DNA of 63,877 nucleotides, counting the filler, from Collodictyon triciliatum (taxonomy: Eukaryota), in NCBI GenBank assembly GCA_043381765.1. It is 12 parts of 12 records of this genome, joined end to end, with 100 filler letters (N's around TTAATTAATTAA, not from the genome) between each part and the next. Parts side by side here need not be neighbours in the genome. Positions count along the whole stretch, not along the records: positions 5,198 to 10,297 come from JBHJMP010005493.1; 11 more parts are not named here. One strand, written 5' to 3'. Within the stretch, counting starts at the first letter, position 1, and each line of letters begins with the position of its first letter. The position numbers and the translations under genes were made by a program. Positions 5,098 to 46,462 of this stretch are shown in pieces. Under the pieces are notes generated by a model. That model had not been told where the DNA came from. It was given only the letters and a program-made list of their open reading frames with translations, and searched no databases.

Positions 5098-5197
5098 NNN
5101 NNNNNNNNNNNNNNNNNNNNNNNNNNNNNNNNNNNNNNNNNTTAATTAATTAANNNNNNNNNNNNNNNNNNNNNNNNNNNNNNNNNNNNNNNNNNNN
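5098..5197. other. Artificial contig linker (N44-TTAATTAATTAA-N44). Identical linkers at 10298-10397, 15492-15591, 25778-25877, 30970-31069, 36160-36259, 41350-41449, 46542-46641, 51727-51826, 56921-57020, 62104-62203
   Basis: Identical 100-nt spacer carrying stops in all six frames, recurring about every 5.2 kb. The gap at 20685-20729 is a plain scaffold gap without the linker. Confidence 0.97.
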
Positions 5198-5297
<100 letters not shown>

Positions 5298-6079
5298 GGG
5301 GAATAAAAGAGGCCTCAAACTCAAGCCACCGACCCACGGGTAGCGAGATAAGTATGAATATAGTGTTCAATATTAGTTGCTCTGATTCATTTTTCCTTTT
5401 TCCTTTTTCTTTTTTCTTTTCCTTTTCATTTTCCTTTTTACTATTACTTTTTTTCCCGGTCTTATTCAGCCTGTAAATGGATATACTCCATAACAAAGGT
5501 TGTGACGAACTTAGTTTTATCCCTTTCAAGGCACTACACTTTTTATACAAGAAAAGGTACCCATATACATAGCAACTTATTGCACAGACAACCATCGAAT
5601 TAAATCTGGATTGACGAAAGCAGGAGCTTTGATGAATCAAAGAAACAACCAGAATAATGTAATAGTATGATTAGTATATAATAAGGTCAAAAATACTTAA
5701 TAATATCATTCTATTCTTGTAATCAATTTATGTTTTATTTTCCATTCATGTAGTATTAAAATTCAAATCCAAAAATTACAAACAAGCCCTTGCCTTGGCC
5801 CAGACAGAACCCACACCATAAACCTACCACCAAACATGGATTTCAAAAAAATAAAATAAAAATACTATCCACATTTGCGGCGATAATCATGTTGTTTGGG
5901 GCCGGTATGTTGACTTTCAATCACAATGGATATACAGCTGTCCTTTCGAACTCGGCAAATCGGCTCTCAGCGTTTTGTCTCAAATTATAAAAAACTTTGT
6001 GTGCTTATTTGCCGCAATGCGCACATTTTGAACGTCTCGGGAGATGCTTAATTTTACATAAATTGATTTTATGCGGTTG

Positions 6080-6179
<100 letters not shown>

Positions 6180-6277
6180 CAATTAATTAATTAATTAAAT
6201 CGACAAATTGAGTGAAGTTTTATTAAATTGAAAACTCGGTTGTTCTCTAGAGGAAAAAGTAAAACAAAGACTTTCAG

Positions 6278-8179
6278 ATGAAGAAAAGAAAACGCCTTGA
6301 GTCTGAGAATCTAATGTCTGTAAAATCACACTATCGAAATGTGAAAACATCTCTAAAGTCGATTGTAAAGAATGGGGATAACTATGACAAAATCAACAAT
6401 ACGGTTTTATTGTGTCATAATTTGATTACCGACACTTATCTATCTGTTTCCAAGATGTTACACATTGAAATACAACTCCCAAAAATCAATGAATTTTTTT
6501 TTAATGCTTTAAAGACGGTCAATATAGTTTCACAAGATAGACCTGCAAGATTACAAAAAATCCAGAAATGAGTAAAGACTTGATGATTTTTATCTCAATG
6601 ATTTTCGATTCTTTTTGTCCCGAGAAGAACGCTCTCGGTTGATTGGACTGTCTCATGCATTACTGCCCTACTTGGCGAAGCAAATGTTAACAGCTTACCA
6701 TAATAACGTTAAGGCACATTTTGTAAAGAGGTTACTGCGCTTTATAAATCAAACAGTTCCTTAAGATGAGAATATGACGGAAGCTATTAAAAAGGCAGAG
6801 TTACGAAAGTTAAAAAAAGCCATCTTCAAGAAACTCGAAATACTGGAACAATATAAAAGATGGACTATAACGCATTTGCATCGTATCATCCCCAGCGATA
6901 TTGTAAAAAGTATCGAATATGATGTCAAAGTCAATCCAAATAAGTACAATACCATGTCTGATTTACACGAATCGCATTTTTGAAGACATTGGAGCCAAAC
7001 TGTTTCAACCAATATCTGTAAAAACTAACAATATACCATGTCATATTACTCTAGAAACTGCATATTTGATAGATCTATTAGTATCAAATGGAAAAACATA
7101 ATTAAAGAAGAATATATCAGGATGCATAGAGACCCTATGAGATAAGTTCTTTGAAATGAAGAAGAGACTCTTTCATCAAAGAGACTGCAATTTCAAATAC
7201 ATGATACAAACAGGCGGCTTGGCAATGTCATTATTGTTTGAAAAGAAAGGGTATTTCAAATTCAAATTCCAAAAATAATAATAAAAACCCAAGAATATGT
7301 TTATATAGATGAACTTTCCGAAAGGCAGCTATCTTTATTAGCGACAAAAAAAAAAAAAAAATAGTTTGAGTGGACACAGGCAAGTTTAATTTTGTTTACA
7401 TGGTGGATGAGACAGGTAAGAAATTACGTTACACGGCACACCAATCAACACATGATAGCAAATCTCCTCAAAATCACAAAATACTATTGCGCCAGAAAAA
7501 GGAAGTACAATGCTTCAGGGATATGCATGGCAACAGATTTACAAAGTGCTATTTCTTTTGGTCTGATGACTTTTGAAGAGAAACAGTGGTTTGAGACATC
7601 AAGAGTATCTTTAATCGATTCAGAGACAGACCTGAGTAAATTTAATTCACGCACAGTCGATTATGAATAGTTTCGAAAATATGTACCTATGAAATCAAGA
7701 TACCAGATAGAACTATCCAGATTTTATGAACACGTAACTTTTCGAAAGATGAGATGGAGACAGTATGTTAATACAAAAAGTGAACAGTTGTTTATGGACG
7801 GAATCGAAAAGACATTTGGCAAGGATGCTGTACTTGCGTATGGAGACTGGAGCAGAAAATGTCACATGAAACATTTCATGCCAACAATCGGAAGGGGATT
7901 ACGAAAAATACTATCCAAACGTTTTGAAACATTTAGTGTGAATGATTTTAGAACCTCCAAGATATGTTGCAACTGCGAAAAAAGAGCTGGAATATATGAT
8001 ACTGAAAGGAAATAGGAAAAAAAAAAGTGTATATATGTCTCATATGTAAAGACTCCAATCGCCCAGAAAGCAAAAAAACAGCATTCTTGACAAGGGACTT
8101 TAAGAGCGCTAAAAATATACTCAAGAAAGTTCTTTTAATCCTAAAAAAAATATGCCTACACCTCGCTCTAAAAAAATAG
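6278..8179 (+). pseudogene. Fanzor1 (TnpB-derived RNA-guided endonuclease), disrupted by multiple frameshifts and stops
   Basis: Collinear motifs across frames: YRNVKTSLKSI; YLAKQMLTAYHNNVKAHFVKRLLRFIN; KLFQPISVKTNNIPCHITLET; YMIQTGGLAMSLLF; RuvC-I IV*VDTGKFNFVYMVD (D at 7373); ETDLSKFNSRTVDY; FYEHVTFRKMRWRQY; AYGDWS...MPTIGRGLRK; VNDFRTSKICCNC; CLICKD; RuvC-III RDFKSAKNI (D at 8096). No clear spliceosomal exon structure, unlike the host genes. Confidence 0.9.
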
Positions 8180-9170
8180 GCTGTTGGGTCTTTCCTGGCA
8201 GTGTTTATTATTACGCAACCTTTGTGAAAAAAGTGGTGAGACCTTGGATGCTAGCACACCACGTTTACCAATCTTTCGATTGACATACTCCTCCTAGTTT
8301 GCACAATAATTCAGCTGTCTGGTGGTGATATTTTGTGGTTTTTTTTTTCACTCGCCCCAATATGGGTACTTTGCTCCAACAAAAGAATTATAGTACGAAC
8401 AAACGAATCGATTGGTTTTTATTTTTATTTATTTATTTGAGATGCATCACCCAGGGTTTATCTTGATCGATCAGGACTAACGCTCTTGTATTCAGCAACA
8501 ATATCTGGGAGCTATTATTCATATTTCATCTCGAAGCTACGTCATTTTCTTCTATCAGGGCACAGCTACGTGCTTATGGTCGAGCTCTCAGCCTTGAGAG
8601 AGAAAAATTTACTACGAGCCCGTTCAATCTCACCTACTTTTATGTAGTACTGTTGAGCGAACATTCTGCTTTTTATGATTTATTATTTAAGTTTAAGCTA
8701 TTTCTGGAGGAAACGAGAATCATTCACTTGGCCATATCGCGGCGACTGGAACCTTCCAAGATGAGTTAGGCTAGAAAACTCACCAATTACTCTTGACAGC
8801 TCGTATACAATCACGTGGAATTCGTTGGTCTGCCGCGTAATCCTGACGAGCAGCATTACTGGCCTAAAAAAACCATGGAAGTAGCCAGATAGGGTCCCAA
8901 AAATAAAATAAAGTAGGATAAAATAAACAGATCGGGAAAGCGAGAGGATGCATTGGTATTTTTTTCTTAGTATTTTATTGTGTGGTCATGGTAGACACGG
9001 CTTTTAGTGCAGGGGACTATGGTGGAAAGGGTGCTACATCCTCCATACTTCTGTTTGTAGTAAATACCTGTGACGTTCCAGATGCCATGAGTGAAGAAGA
9101 GAAGTTATGGGCATAGTATTGCATTCCCCAACAAGGAAGGCAAAGAGAAAGAGAATAAAATAAAATTTAC

Positions 9171-9952
<782 letters not shown>

Positions 9953-10481
9953 CTGAAAAGGAAATAGGGATAAAAAAGAACATTAATCGAATGGCTCAAA
10001 TTAGACAACCAAATAGAAATATTTTTTAAAAAAAAAGGATTGAAAGACACAGAGGACATAATAAGTACACAGTAAATGTATTCCTCGTAGAATAGTATAC
10101 GACTTTCACGCGATAGTGAACTTCAGACATTTTGTTCATAAAATATATATAAAGGGTAAAGAAGAAGAAGAAGAAGAAGAAGAAGAAGAAGAAGAAGAAG
10201 AAGAAGAAGAAGAAGAAGAAGAAGAAGAAGAAGAAGAAGAAGAAGAAGAAGAAGAAGAAGAAGAAAATAGAATATATTTTCAACTCTATTGGAGGTTNNN
10301 NNNNNNNNNNNNNNNNNNNNNNNNNNNNNNNNNNNNNNNNNTTAATTAATTAANNNNNNNNNNNNNNNNNNNNNNNNNNNNNNNNNNNNNNNNNNNNTTT
10401 TTTGTTTTTTTGTTTTTTTTGTTTTTTTGTTTTTTTGTTTTTTTGTTTTTTTGTTTTTTTGTTTTTTTGTTTTTATTTAAG

Positions 10482-43226: not shown

Positions 43227-45729
43227 TTACTTGGGGCCAGCAGCCTTGATTTCGGCTGATGCTCCGCTCTCAAATCTCTTGAAGTTCTCTGTGAAAAGAC
43301 CAGAGAGCTTCATGAGGGTCTTTGAGTAATCTGAGTGATTGTTCCATGTCTTCATGGGCATGAGCACGTTGGGGTCGACATTGGGGCAGCTGGTGGGGAC
43401 CTTTGCGGAGCAGAGGCATTTAGAACAATACTTCTAATCGAAGGCAGATGACACGCACGAGCTCTTTCATATAATTTGACTACTATTCAATTGCCAGAGC
43501 TCGAGAATAATATATGTCTGGTCTGTACCTGCAGATTGAAGACTGGGAAGGTCTCATACTTGACCTTCTCGAGGCTTCCGTCATGGATGGCATCAAGGAT
43601 GGCACGGGTCACCTTGAGGCTCATGCGCTTTCCGACACCGTAGGCACCTCCGCTCCAGCCAGTGTTGACGAGCCAGACGTTGGCATTGTGCTTGTTGATT
43701 TTTTCAGCGAGAAGCTCAGCATACTTGGCCGGGTGCCAAACCATGAAAGGAGCACCGAAGCACGCAGAGAAGGTGGCTTGGGGCTCCTTCACGCCGACTT
43801 CGGTACCTGCGACCTGATTATAAAGAAAACGAGGTCATACATCGAGGCAACATATTGAAGACCTAAAAGCACTGTTTTTATAGTAATAAAACCAAACAAT
43901 AATGATAGTTATGACAGTGCCGATGATGGTGATGATTTTATTGGTGATGGTGATTGAATCGCATATTATGTTGCAAACTCTTTGTACCTTAGCGGTGTAT
44001 CCAGAGATGAAGTGGTACATGGCTTGAGCTGGAGTGAGCTTGGCGACTGGGGGAAGGACACCAAAGGCATCGCAGGTGAGCATGACAATGTTCTTGGGGT
44101 GTCCGCCGACAGCGGGAATCTTGACGTTGGGAATGTGCTCAAGGGGATACGAGATGCGAGTATTCTCCGTGATGCTAACGTTGTTGTAGTCGACCTGCAC
44201 ACAAAAAAAAAGCATATGAATTCGTCAGCTGACCTTTGGCAAGGAGACAGGGCTGATTGTATCCGCTTGGTATAACATGCACGTAGTTTGGATGGAGAAT
44301 AAAAAGGAAGTCGGGAAGGACTAAAATAAAAATAGAATACGTACAACACCGGTGTGGCGGTCATAGATGACGTTCTCCAGGAGCGCACCAAAGCGAATGG
44401 CATCGTAGATTTCAGGTTCCTTCTCACGAGTGAGACCGATGGCCTTAGCGTAGCAGCCTCCTTCAATGTTAAAGACTCCTTCATCACTCCAGGCGTGCTC
44501 ATCATCTCCAATCAATTTGCGGCCTGTGTCAGCCGAGAGGGTGGTCTTTCCAGTCCCACTAAGTATGGGTTGTGGAGGGAAAGTCAGTTCAAAAATATAA
44601 ACTAAATCTAGGTAACAGCCGCAGCAATTAAATATTTTAAAGAAAAGTGGTAAGGCACAAAACAGTAAAGAATAAAGTATGGTTTACCTGAGACCGAAGA
44701 AGAGAGTCACATCTCCATTCTTTCCTTCATTGGCTGAAGCATGCATGGAGAGGATACCCTTCTTGGGGAGCAGATAATTCATAATAGTGAAGACACCCTT
44801 CTTCATCTCACCAGCATATTGAGTTCCAAGGATGACAAACTCCCTGGTAGCAAAGTTGAGGGAGACAGAGGTGGCTGAGGTCATTCCCTCGCTGAAGCGG
44901 TTGGCTGGGAAGGCACCCCCGTTGTAGATGGTATAGTCGGGATCACCAAAGCTTTCAAGCTCCTCGGGAGTTGGGCGGATAAGCATGTTGTGCATGAAAA
45001 GAGCGTGGTATGCACGGGATGTAATGACGCGGATCTAGAATGAATTCGCCACTTAGTTGAGATTTAACAGTTGGAAAATAGGAGTGCAAGGATGCTATCG
45101 TCCTCAGTACTTGCAACAAAAAAAAAAGAAATAAAGCACATAAATCAGTGAGCGTTTTTTGATTCATCCCGGAGGAAAGCAACCTTGTATCTATTTTTGG
45201 GGTCCCAGTTAGCAAACCCGTCAAAGACATAGAGTCTGCGGTGAGTGTTGAGGTAGTCAATGGCGCGCTCACGATTGATGCGGAAGACTTGCGGGCTTAG
45301 CTTGACATTGACGCTGCCCCACCAAATGTCATTCACAGAAGACGGCTCCTCCACGATGCGCTTGTCAAGAGGCGAGCGGCCGGTCTTTGCACCGGAGAGG
45401 GCAGCCAGGGCGCCGGTGGAGAGGATGGCCGAGCCGCTTTCGTAGTTGAGGGCCTCTTCGTACAGCTTGCCAACACTGGCGTTGCGGAATACAACCTCAG
45501 TGTTGATACCGATGTTGGAAAGGATTTTTGTGTCGGCATCATGCTCCTGGTGGACGGAAGGCGTCTGGGAAGGCGCGTCTGTGCCGGGCTTCGAGCCTTG
45601 CAGTGACTTCTTGACAGATTCAAGGACCTTGTCGGGCGAGTTGGAGTTGGACGAGGACTGGACAAAGCGGGCCAGAGCCGCAGTTGAGGGTGACGGCAGG
45701 ATTCCGCGCAGGCGGGTTACAAGCGACAT
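43227..45729 (-). CDS. pckA: Phosphoenolpyruvate carboxykinase (ATP), complete, 6 exons, 590 aa
   Basis: Exons 45184-45729, 44688-45034, 44345-44558, 43988-44194, 43529-43813 and 43227-43400 join in frame (1773 nt). Motifs [55 protein letters not shown]. Strong C/G third-position bias. Confidence 0.97.
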
Positions 45730-46462
45730 AGTGTGTGCTTGGTCTAGTGTGTCGGGTTTGTAGATTTAGGCTTGGTTGAACTTTACAAAGTATTTTGTCT
45801 ACCGTGCCTTTTTGTGTGTGTCTATGAATTCTCGTAATTAGTCCGATTCAATCAGTTTCATGAGAAGATATTCTAGAATATTAATAGCAATCACCCTTTT
45901 CTACATGTAGACATTCACTCATTATTATAATTGCATATTCTGGCTTCTCTTATTCTTTGGGAATACTGGCAAATCGTGTGTGGATTAGTGCAAAGTTACT
46001 CGAAGAAGACTGCTTTTTTTCAATTGGTTGTTCAGTGTTCTCTTGCACTACCTCGTAATCCGTTCGGTGATGGCTGGAGTCTTTGACCATTTAAGTACTG
46101 GAACGTTATATACCGCTCTCATGACCTGACGCTCGGTGACGCATATTTGCGCACCCTGTGATGTTTTGTGTCGTAGACACAGGAAATGGTCTGACGTGTC
46201 TTTGCGCATTGTAGAACGACAGCATAGCCTTTTCTATCTGTGCGAACACTTCACTACGTTTCTGCGATACACTACCGCTATTATTATCTATTATACAATA
46301 TTTTATTATTGGTTTGCTTTATTAAATACTTTGCATAAATTATTAATATTTAATATTATATATTATAATTTCCATATATAGATGAATTATTTTTGGTATG
46401 TTTTTAGTGTTTTTTGTTTTTTATTTTTTTATTTTTTTTGTTTTTTTGTTTTTTTTTTTTTT

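What the first reader, a model, noticed from the sequence alone, without database searches (positions are those of the whole stretch)
6278..8179. Full-length fossil Fanzor1 RNA-guided nuclease in a protist genome
Seen: an essentially intronless ~1.9-kb (~600-codon) reading frame broken into six or more pieces. It carries in order the Fanzor1 N-terminal block (VKTSLKSI; QMLTAYHNNVKAHF), RuvC-I (VDTGK, preceded by a TGA where Gly is expected), GDWS, the VN[D]FRTSKxCxxC segment, a second Cys knuckle and RuvC-III RDxxSAKNI. Known: Fanzors are eukaryotic TnpB relatives guided by an omega-RNA, and they use a relocated RuvC-II Glu just before the TSK-CxxC segment. Here that residue is Asp (GAT, 7944). 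Inference: this copy is dead, but it implies an active or recently active Fanzor-carrying element family in this lineage. No transposase is visible on the contig, so it may be non-autonomous or virus-derived. The basic N-terminus MKKRKR looks like an NLS.
Basis: partly seen in the sequence, partly recalled or inferred. Interest (0 to 1): 0.85.

Follow-up and report, generated by a model that had tools for sequence, protein, structure and literature searches.

The report
Dead Fanzor1 nuclease gene copy
This is a decayed, non-functional copy of a Fanzor1 RNA-guided nuclease gene, one member of a repeated mobile-element family whose closest relatives sit in giant viruses; it is a correct but fairly ordinary find.

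Summary
Window 6278-8233 (+) is a full-length, intronless Fanzor1 gene relic. Its pieces hit the three solved Fanzor1 proteins (best E 1.4e-10). They align end to end with an intact 648-aa metagenomic protein, P0001 (383 of 641 codons identical), through 8 frameshifts and 7 in-frame stops. It keeps 93 of 110 family-invariant residues, against 103-108 in 154 intact relatives. The losses include the DPG proline, the relocated RuvC-II Glu (Asp, GAT 7944-46) and a zinc-finger Cys.

New here:
- Laid contigs from 4 runs of 3 studies show many diverged copies (85-99% alike) of a roughly 2-kb unit that ends near 8273-8307. Some copies lack this copy's lesions.
- The clade is abundant in giant-virus contigs. 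327 of 510 IMG/VR stretches encode relatives, and window+P0001 nests among them.
- Those viral copies are 2.0-2.4 kb single-gene elements with 34-36-nt inverted ends and a structured 3' region.

No inverted ends, omega-RNA-like region or transposase could be shown in the window. Fanzor1 in protists and giant viruses, and multi-copy solo elements with decayed copies, are already in print. This is a new member of a known kind, of modest interest.

The parts
6278..8233 (+). Fanzor1 pseudogene: full-length and intronless, 8 frameshifts and 7 in-frame stops relative to P0001
   Evidence: Frameshift-aware alignment with 641 codons aligned and 383 identical. tblastn HSPs in three frames. PDB Fanzor1 hits.
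6278..6295 (+). Basic N-terminus MKKRKR, a putative nuclear localisation signal (inferred)
   Evidence: Sequence. All 8 fetched homologues have a Lys/Arg-rich N-terminus; most carry a run of 3 or more K/R within the first dozen residues, and P0005 has scattered lysines only. N-terminal NLSs of Fanzors were validated by Jiang et al. 2023 (passages). Not tested here.
6341..6722 (+). N-terminal/REC blocks, VKTSLKSI to QMLTAYHNNVKAHF
   Evidence: Piece 6576-6764 matches GtFz1 (E 6.6e-4) and PpFz1 (E 0.17) at the ...TAY.NN.xAHF block.
7367..7384 (+). RuvC-I region: TGA in place of invariant Gly, then V-D-T-G-K (Asp kept; the Pro of the DPG signature is replaced by Thr)
   Evidence: G362->stop, P365->T. 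DPG is invariant in 9 of 9 homologues.
7842..7853 (+). GDWS block
   Evidence: G521, W523 and S524 are invariant in A1.
7944..7976 (+). Relocated RuvC-II position (GAT, Asp instead of Glu) followed by FRTSKI and CCNC (first zinc knuckle)
   Evidence: The Asp aligns to the E of ...DEFRTSS.C/...DEYKTSSVC in PpFz1 and SpuFz1. E555 is invariant in A1. Pattern test.
8036..8056 (+). Second zinc knuckle: CLIC is kept, but the family-invariant Cys590 is replaced by Ser
   Evidence: C590->S at 8054, R583->I at 8033.
8093..8116 (+). RuvC-III block RDFKSAKN (Arg-Asp kept; invariant Asn606 replaced by Lys)
6225..8307 (+). Approximate extent of the repeated unit shared with other copies in public runs. The left edge is uncertain because the stretch laid began at 6200. 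The right edge lies between 8273 and 8307.
   Evidence: In one search the summed depth falls to 0 after bin 8184-8307 in all 4 runs. Loose ends lie at 6225 and 6254 (before) and at 8273 (behind).
6085..6179 (.). (ATT)n microsatellite directly upstream (flank, not shown to belong to the element)
8960..10122 (-). Neighbouring cellular gene (alpha-SNAP-like) lying tail to tail with the pseudogene, spliced
   Evidence: Pfam SNAP, E 1.1e-19. Contigs of runs X5 and X6 join 9064>9168 and 9316>9472 with CT..AC ends, which is GT..AG on the minus strand.

Best explanation
Window 6278-8233 is a neutrally decaying copy of a solo (single-gene, non-autonomous) Fanzor1 element of about 2 kb. It sits in intergenic DNA of a eukaryotic chromosome. 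When intact, such a gene encodes a nuclear RNA-guided DNA endonuclease of about 640 aa. Its RuvC site is made of Asp (DPG), a Glu shifted to six residues before the zinc finger, and Asp (RD). The guide is an omega-RNA transcribed from the 3' end of the element. By analogy with TnpB, cleavage of element-free target sites helps the element persist or spread, with transposition supplied in trans. That last step is inferred from the literature and is not shown here. This copy can no longer make the protein. It belongs to a multi-copy family in this lineage, and that family's protein clade is nested among Fanzor1 genes of giant viruses (Nucleocytoviricota).
For: Shown:
- Fanzor1 homology. The PDB hits are Fanzor1 only: 9cf0 at 1.4e-10, 8gkh at 1.5e-6 and 9cer at 1.1e-4, with GtFz1 at 6.6e-4 for an N-terminal piece.
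- Collinear full-length alignment to intact P0001 with 59.8% identity, 8 frameshifts, 7 stops and no insert longer than 3 codons, so no introns.
- Relaxed constraint. The window keeps 93 of 110 invariant columns; 154 intact control ORFs keep 103-108.
- The published Fanzor1 pattern DPG..E-x6-[CH]xxC..C..RDx5N is met by 9 of 9 close homologues and 152 of 154 locus ORFs. The window fails it and fits only if P/T and E/D are allowed, at the same coordinates as P0001.
- The standard code is used nearby. PEPCK_ATP profile positions 3-457 are covered by 5 stop-free exons, and all three stop codons occur among the lesions.
- Multi-copy family. 320, 275, 152 and 8 contigs of runs X5, X6, X2 and X1 (3 studies) were laid on 6200-9900 at 85% identity or more, with up to 26 contigs at one position. 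Depth over the gene is high and falls to zero after about 8307.
- Other copies carry A at 7668 (TAG>AAG, which is Lys as in P0001), one base fewer at 6951, a C added behind 6586 and AA added behind 7502. These are the intact states at 4 of this copy's lesions.
- Chromosomal context. The neighbours are spliced cellular genes, and none of the 82 other window ORFs scanned against Pfam gave a transposase or a giant-virus hallmark.
- Clade. 327 of 510 IMG/VR stretches and 377 of 595 metagenome stretches encode relatives. The nearest Atlas clusters are 92-100% Viruses, with Nucleocytoviricota the commonest phylum. Window+P0001 (support 100) lies inside a starred clade that holds all 10 IMG/VR rows once 12 more distant representatives are added.
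- Relatives are solo elements.
Against: - No terminal inverted repeats above chance flank the window copy. The best score was 11, against a mean of 9.5 and a maximum of 12 in 30 shuffles.
- Neither an nhmmer profile nor a covariance model of the viral 3' (omega-RNA-like) region matches at 8100-8300.
- The element ends, target-site duplication and guide RNA are therefore undefined for this copy.
- The left boundary is poorly set, because the laid stretch began at 6200.
- Runs X5 and X6 are only guessed to be RNA, so transcription of the family is likely but not shown.
- The trees are 'quick' searches rooted at the midpoint. The origin of the non-IMG/VR sequences, P0001 included, is unknown, so the direction of any virus-host transfer is open.
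- No whole genome is held, so copy number in this assembly is unknown.
Confidence: 0.9

Rival explanations
1. The gene is alive. On this reading the breaks are assembly or homopolymer errors, introns, or recoding (stop-codon reassignment or programmed frameshifting).
For: Two of the 8 frameshifts lie in or beside long A runs, at 7347-48 in A15 and at 8014. Fanzor genes are known to carry introns (Jiang et al. 2023, abstract and passages).
Against: - There are seven substitution-type stops of all three kinds.
- No extra DNA lies at any break, so introns are excluded.
- PEPCK exons in the same window read without internal stops under the standard code.
- 17 of 110 invariant residues are lost, including catalytic and zinc ligands.
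- A 258-nt contig of run X1 is identical over 7939-8196. That stretch includes two frameshift sites and the 8177 stop. It may, however, come from the source sample.
Confidence: 0.02
2. The pseudogene is part of a larger integrated giant-virus segment (an endogenous viral region), not a free-standing transposon copy.
For: The protein clade is dominated by Nucleocytoviricota contigs.
Against: - Similarity to other copies is confined to about 2 kb and stops at about 8273-8307.
- The next gene, 0.7 kb away, is a spliced cellular SNAP gene.
- None of the 82 other window ORFs (each >=95 aa) scanned against Pfam gave a giant-virus hallmark family.
- G+C content is like the rest of the window.
Confidence: 0.05
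3. The protein gene is dead, but the locus still works as an omega-RNA donor (a 'ghost'-like guide locus) for intact family members acting in trans.
For: Ghost loci with IRs and omega-RNA but no ORF are described for Spizellomyces (Saito et al. 2023, passages). The family seems to be present in runs that hold spliced cDNA.
Against: No omega-RNA-like region could be recognised at the 3' end, and no IRs were found. The model used comes from a viral sub-clade whose proteins are only about 37-46% identical to this copy by blastx, so the negative result is weak.
Confidence: 0.05

Closest known systems
Fanzor1 (eukaryotic/viral TnpB-like RNA-guided endonuclease): SpuFz1, PpFz1 and GtFz1 (PDB 8gkh, 9cf0, 9cer)
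   Same: Same block order: N-terminal REC blocks, RuvC-I, GDWS, Glu-x6-CxxC, second zinc knuckle and RD-x5-N. Direct sequence matches to all three solved proteins. Length of about 640 codons.
   Different: The window copy is a pseudogene. The DPG Pro, the shifted Glu and one zinc Cys are substituted, and there are 15 frame lesions. Only local regions are similar to the solved fungal and cryptophyte proteins.
Spu-1 elements of Spizellomyces punctatus (about 2.1-kb single-ORF Fz1 loci with 30-nt IRs; 42 loci, 19 of them full-length; no transposase). Source: Saito et al. 2023, PMC10432273, passages read.
   Same: A solo Fanzor1 unit of about 2 kb, multi-copy, with full and decayed copies and no transposase inside.
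   Different: IRs and omega-RNA are defined there and could not be shown here. The protein clade is different, being giant-virus associated.
Giant-virus Fanzor1 clade carrying Pfam DUF8286 (PF26935); loci L001-L160 fetched here
   Same: Closest protein relatives after P0001: 37-46% identical to the window by blastx, and 38-47% identical to P0001. Solo 2.0-2.4-kb elements. Basic N-terminus.
   Different: Viral copies are intact: 154 of 160 loci have an ORF of >=450 aa. They have 34-36-nt TIRs, found in 3 of the 12 loci examined. A conserved right-end motif occurs in 94 of 154. The window has neither. Window+P0001 forms its own long branch.
SfAV (ascovirus) Fanzor1 element. Source: Yoon et al. 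2023, bioRxiv 10.1101/2023.08.09.552727, passages read.
   Same: A simple non-autonomous element that encodes only Fanzor1. Its reRNA comes from the right end, with a stem next to the guide formed partly by the TIR. This is the same layout as seen in the viral loci here.
   Different: It belongs to a different, more compact (550-600 aa) early-branching Fanzor1 group in insect viruses.

Membership tests
Fanzor1 (by descent) | Significant sequence similarity to experimentally characterised Fanzor1 proteins, better than to any other family | tested here: met
   The only hits with E below 0.001 in the PDB are the Fanzor1 chains 9cf0, 8gkh and 9cer and 9cer. Full-length collinearity with 620-660-aa homologues.
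Fanzor1 (by descent) | Fanzor1-type N-terminal/REC extension upstream of RuvC-I, giving a protein of about 600+ aa rather than the roughly 400 aa of TnpB | tested here: met
   Codons 1-360 align to P0001. The TAYxNNxxAHF block matches GtFz1 and PpFz1.
Fanzor1 (functional enzyme) | DPG motif in RuvC-I (Yoon et al. 2023) | tested here: not met
   The window has D-T-G preceded by a TGA stop. DPG is invariant in 9 of 9 homologues.
Fanzor1 (functional enzyme) | C-terminally shifted RuvC-II Glu six residues before [CH]xxC (Yoon et al. 2023, Jiang et al. 2023; E541 in SpuFz1, Saito et al. 2023) | tested here: not met
   Asp (GAT 7944-46) stands at that position and the spacing is kept. Whether Asp could substitute was not tested.
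Fanzor1 (functional enzyme) | RuvC-III RD-x5-N and a two-knuckle zinc finger | tested here: inconclusive
   RD and the x5-N spacing are kept, and CxxC is kept. The family-invariant Cys590 is changed to Ser and Asn606 to Lys.
Fanzor1 (functional enzyme) | Uninterrupted reading frame | tested here: not met
   8 frameshifts and 7 stops.
OMEGA-type element (nuclease plus omega-RNA at the right end) | Structured non-coding RNA overlapping the 3' end of the ORF and ending at the element's right end | tested here: inconclusive
   Present in viral relatives: with 23 pairs, 98.2% of cells are paired against at most 63.7% when the partners are slid, and 2 pairs show compensatory changes. Not detected in the window by nhmmer or by the covariance model.
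Transposon with terminal inverted repeats | TIRs and a target-site duplication at the ends of the unit | tested here: not met
   No inverted pair above the shuffled controls in the window. TIRs of 34-36 nt were found in viral loci L031, L033 and L052 only, of the 12 loci examined.
Prokaryotic TnpB (IS200/IS605, IS607) | Compact protein with the canonical RuvC-II Glu about 50 residues upstream, and TnpA nearby | tested here: not met
   The architecture and best hits are Fanzor1. Among the homologues only a weak, sub-threshold PF07282 hit appears, in 2 of the 4 scanned. No TnpA-like ORF in the window.

The most novel reading that the evidence does not exclude
The dead copy marks a high-copy, still transcribed Fanzor1 transposon family that has crossed between giant viruses and a freshwater eukaryote. 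If so, intact and active nucleases with their own omega-RNA exist elsewhere in this genome. That would be a natural case of virus-host exchange of an RNA-guided nuclease and a source of new compact editors.
Probability: 0.3. Interest if true: 0.5.

Novelty: new member of a known kind. Interest (0 to 1): 0.27.

Why it matters
On its own a dead Fanzor1 copy adds little. Fanzor1 in protists, fungi, arthropods, plants and giant viruses is in print (Saito et al. 2023, Jiang et al. 2023, Yoon et al. 2023; passages read). So are multi-copy solo elements with decayed members.

Its value is as a pointer. It flags a eukaryotic lineage whose genome, and probably transcriptome, holds many copies of a Fanzor1 family that sits inside the giant-virus clade. 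That gives a concrete place to look for intact nucleases, their guide RNA and their ends. It also gives a case for testing virus-host traffic of RNA-guided nucleases.

Tried and rejected
- **Pfam on the ten ORF pieces.** No family was found. This is uninformative. The local Pfam copy also fails on intact homologues, with only sub-threshold PF07282 in 2 of 4, and it seems to lack PF26935, which the databases list for them.
- **Whole genome.** None is held, so copies in the assembly could not be counted.
- **Rfam and tRNA scans of the window.** Nothing found.
- **Metagenome scan with the 114-aa window piece.** 71 stretches matched a pattern and 0 were relatives. Close copies' DNA therefore could not be fetched, and P0001's own contig was not among the 160 loci.
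- **Sequencing runs.** No RNA holder is listed. 9 rows hold a share of 0.12 or less.
- **Laying reads.** The stretch 6200-9900 was laid instead.
- **TIR search in the window.** Not above chance.
- **Viral right-end motifs in the window.** Only scattered matches with 2-4 mismatches, none at the element's end.
- **Profile and covariance model of the viral 3' region.** nhmmer and covariance model R1 gave no match at 8100-8300. The best covariance-model hit in the searched stretch (5200-10290) had E 0.38 and lay elsewhere, on the minus strand.
- **RNAalifold on the mixed alignment A2.** It gave only one 8-pair stem, because the alignment is not structure-aware.
- **Mimivirus-type early promoter octamer (AAAATTGA, recalled from memory) upstream of the ATG.** It was present in 1 of 113 distinct viral upstream stretches, against 6 in shuffles. 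The looser forms were also not enriched. The idea was dropped.
- **Host lineage from a PEPCK exon in the Atlas.** Mixed taxa, uninformative.
- **The N runs every ~5.19 kb** are read here as masks, because of their regular spacing, not as scaffold gaps.
Full report
**What is there.** All ten pieces were blank against the local Pfam. That library also misses the intact relatives, so the blank says nothing.

Sequence searches against solved structures settle the identity.
- Piece 7671-8015 hits Parasitella Fanzor1 (9cf0, E 1.4e-10), Spizellomyces Fanzor1 (8gkh, 1.5e-6) and Guillardia Fanzor1 (9cer, 1.1e-4). No other chain scores below E 0.1.
- The N-terminal piece 6576-6764 hits GtFz1 (6.6e-4) at the ...TAY.NN..AHF block.

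A database search with the 114-aa piece found 12 proteins among 31 candidates, mostly 620-660 aa long. The closest is P0001 (648 aa, from metagenomes). It begins MKKRKR... like the window and carries every motif intact. tblastn of these proteins finds exactly one locus in the window.

**How broken it is.** A frameshift-aware protein-to-DNA alignment to P0001 covers 6278-8233 with 641 aligned codons, 383 of them identical (59.8%). It needs 8 frame-shifting indels and passes 7 in-frame stops: TAA twice, TGA three times and TAG twice.
- No break holds extra DNA, since the largest insert is 3 codons. Introns therefore do not explain the breaks.
- Stop reassignment does not explain them either. All three stop codons occur among the lesions. 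A PEPCK_ATP gene in the same window is covered over profile positions 3-457 by five stop-free exons under the standard code.
- Of 110 columns invariant in nine homologues (alignment A1), the window keeps 93. By contrast, 154 intact ORFs from fetched loci keep 103-108, with a median of 105.
- The 17 losses include Gly362>stop (the TGA before VDTGK), Pro365>Thr (the DPG signature), Glu555>Asp (GAT 7944-46), Cys590>Ser in the zinc finger and Asn606>Lys in the RuvC-III block.
- The published Fanzor1 pattern DPG-x(120,280)-E-x6-[CH]xxC-...-RD-x5-N (Yoon et al. 2023, passages) is met by 9 of 9 A1 members and 152 of 154 locus ORFs. The window does not meet it. It fits only when P/T and E/D are allowed, at the same coordinates as P0001.
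In the PDB alignments the window's Asp stands under the E of ...DEFRTSS.C (PpFz1) and ...DEYKTSSVC (SpuFz1). Yoon et al. place the shifted RuvC-II Glu six residues before the zinc finger. Jiang et al. showed that the alternative Glu is essential in ApmFz. Saito et al. list E541 with D383 and D606 as metal ligands of SpuFz1.

**Context.** The window is eukaryotic chromosomal DNA with about 31-48% G+C.
- Pfam on 82 other ORFs of at least 95 aa found an EDR1/ARMC3-like domain, alpha-SNAP, Kelch, a five-exon PEPCK_ATP, TPR and weak ankyrin and XK-related hits. It found no transposase and no giant-virus hallmark.
- The SNAP gene lies tail to tail with the pseudogene, 0.7 kb downstream on the minus strand.
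- The N runs that recur every ~5.19 kb are read here as masks, because of their regular spacing, not as assembly gaps.
- The host lineage was not determined. An Atlas look-up of a PEPCK exon gave mixed taxa, and no whole genome is held. 'Protist' is therefore unverified.

**A family, not a singleton.** No run holds more than 12% of the stretch's sampled words. Contigs of four runs from three studies were laid on 6200-9900 at 85% identity or more, giving 320 (X5), 275 (X6), 152 (X2) and 8 (X1) contigs.
- Most are 85-95% alike, and up to 26 distinct contigs cover one position.
- Summed depth is high across the gene and falls to zero after the 8184-8307 bin in all four runs.
- Loose ends lie at 6225 and 6254 (left) and at 8273 (right). 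The repeated unit is therefore about 2 kb, little more than the gene. The left edge is weak because the laid stretch began at 6200.
- X5 and X6 are probably cDNA. Each holds a ~1-kb contig that joins 9064>9168 and 9316>9472 with GT..AG ends on the minus strand, which is the spliced SNAP message. Both have no depth over the intergenic 8308-8927. Transcription of the Fanzor family is thus likely but not proven, since a high-copy DNA trace cannot be excluded.
- Other copies carry the intact state at four of this copy's lesions: A at 7668 (TAG>AAG, Lys as in P0001), one base fewer at 6951, a C added behind 6586 and AA added behind 7502.
- Several single contigs skip 42-281 nt without intron-like ends. 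These are read as internal deletions in other copies or as assembly joins.
- One 258-nt X1 contig is identical over 7939-8196, lesions included. It may come from the source sample.

**Relatives.**
- The A1 profile finds 6,490 cluster representatives at E<=1e-3 among 1.84 billion, 3,755 at 1e-10 and 1,343 at 1e-30. None is closer to the window than P0001 and P0014.
- In IMG/VR, 327 of 510 pattern matches encode relatives. Many lie on giant-virus MAG contigs of up to 289 kb. In JGI metagenomes 377 of 595 do.
- The Atlas's nearest clusters to P0001 are 92-100% 'Viruses', with Nucleocytoviricota the commonest phylum, and carry DUF8286.
- In a 19-row tree, window+P0001 form a clade (support 100) on a long branch. 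The window's terminal branch is three times that of P0001.
- With 17 more representatives added, 12 of which fall outside, window+P0001 sits inside a starred clade (100) that holds all 10 IMG/VR rows. Within it, it joins a starred set (96) with the viral loci L001-L003.
- These are quick searches with midpoint rooting and unlabelled metagenomic rows. Nesting among viral sequences is supported, but the direction of transfer is not.

**How the family works, seen in the viral copies.**
- Pairs of copies from one viral contig or genome bin share only 1,994-2,434 bp around the ORF, at 81-89% identity.
- 154 of 160 loci have an intact ORF.
- Three of the 12 loci examined (L031, L033, L052) show 34-36-nt terminal inverted repeats. 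The left one lies about 430-440 nt before the ATG and the right one about 84 nt after the stop.
- 94 of 154 loci carry the conserved right-end motif, and it is shared even by sub-clades that differ elsewhere.
- Over 57 distinct 3' ends (A3), a hand-drawn structure of two hairpins plus a long stem closing on the right end has 98.2% of 1,291 cells paired, against at most 63.7% when partners are slid. Two pairs show compensatory changes, in 36 cells, and 0 of 500 shuffles reach the covariation score.
- This matches the layout that Yoon et al. describe for viral Fanzor1 reRNA, with a stem next to the guide formed by the TIR.

**None of this could be shown in the window copy.** No inverted repeat is above chance. 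There is no nhmmer or covariance-model match at 8100-8300. The model comes from a sub-clade whose proteins are only about 37-46% identical to the window by blastx, so the negative result is weak.

**Verdict.** This is a dead, full-length Fanzor1 copy from a multi-copy solo-element family of giant-virus affinity. Two things are already described: Fanzor1 in protists and giant viruses, and ~2.1-kb single-ORF multi-copy elements with decayed members and no transposase (Saito et al. 2023, Jiang et al. 2023, Yoon et al. 2023; passages only, supplements closed). It is therefore a new member of a known kind. Its worth is as a lead to intact copies in this lineage.

Noticed in passing
L031:5512-7914, L033:5521-7914, L052:5513-7910 (and 3' ends of 94 of 154 loci): Giant-virus Fanzor1 elements of this clade have 34-36-nt terminal inverted repeats (left end TTTACACC..., right end ...GGTGTAAA). 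They also have a strongly conserved right-end block and a 3' region with covarying hairpins. Part of that conserved RNA-like sequence lies inside the C-terminal coding region, which may explain the conserved ...SVDFT... peptide tail.
   Followed up: partly
L110, L117, L139, L151 (3' ends in alignment A3): Four of the 57 viral 3' ends lack the second, otherwise nearly invariant hairpin (GTAGG-TGAAATT-CCTAC) altogether. L141 (in alignment A2) has a longer hairpin there, with compensatory stem changes.
   Followed up: no
window 5098-5197, 10298-10397 and every ~5190 bases onward: Paired runs of 44 N recur at a regular spacing through the window. From their regularity they look like masks, not scaffold gaps. 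They produce a spurious 101-nt perfect 'inverted repeat' around the locus in the repeat finder.
   Followed up: yes
window 8960-10122 (-): An alpha-SNAP-like gene with at least two short introns (103 and 155 nt, GT..AG). ~1-kb spliced contigs in two runs of related organisms confirm the splicing.
   Followed up: partly
window 43490-45765 (-): An ATP-dependent PEPCK gene in five exons with very short introns. The ATP type argues (from general knowledge, recalled) against an animal host.
   Followed up: partly
window 6231-6260 versus L001/L002/L083 about 45 nt upstream of the ATG: By eye, the 5' leader of the window copy (GAAAACT...TTCTCT) resembles the conserved leader of the nearest viral loci (AAAAACTACTTAAGAATTATTTTCTC). 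This was not tested statistically.
   Followed up: no
window 6085-6179 and 5198-5297: Long (ATT)n and (AAT)n microsatellites flank the region upstream of the pseudogene and form a ~99-nt inverted pair 0.8 kb apart.
   Followed up: no
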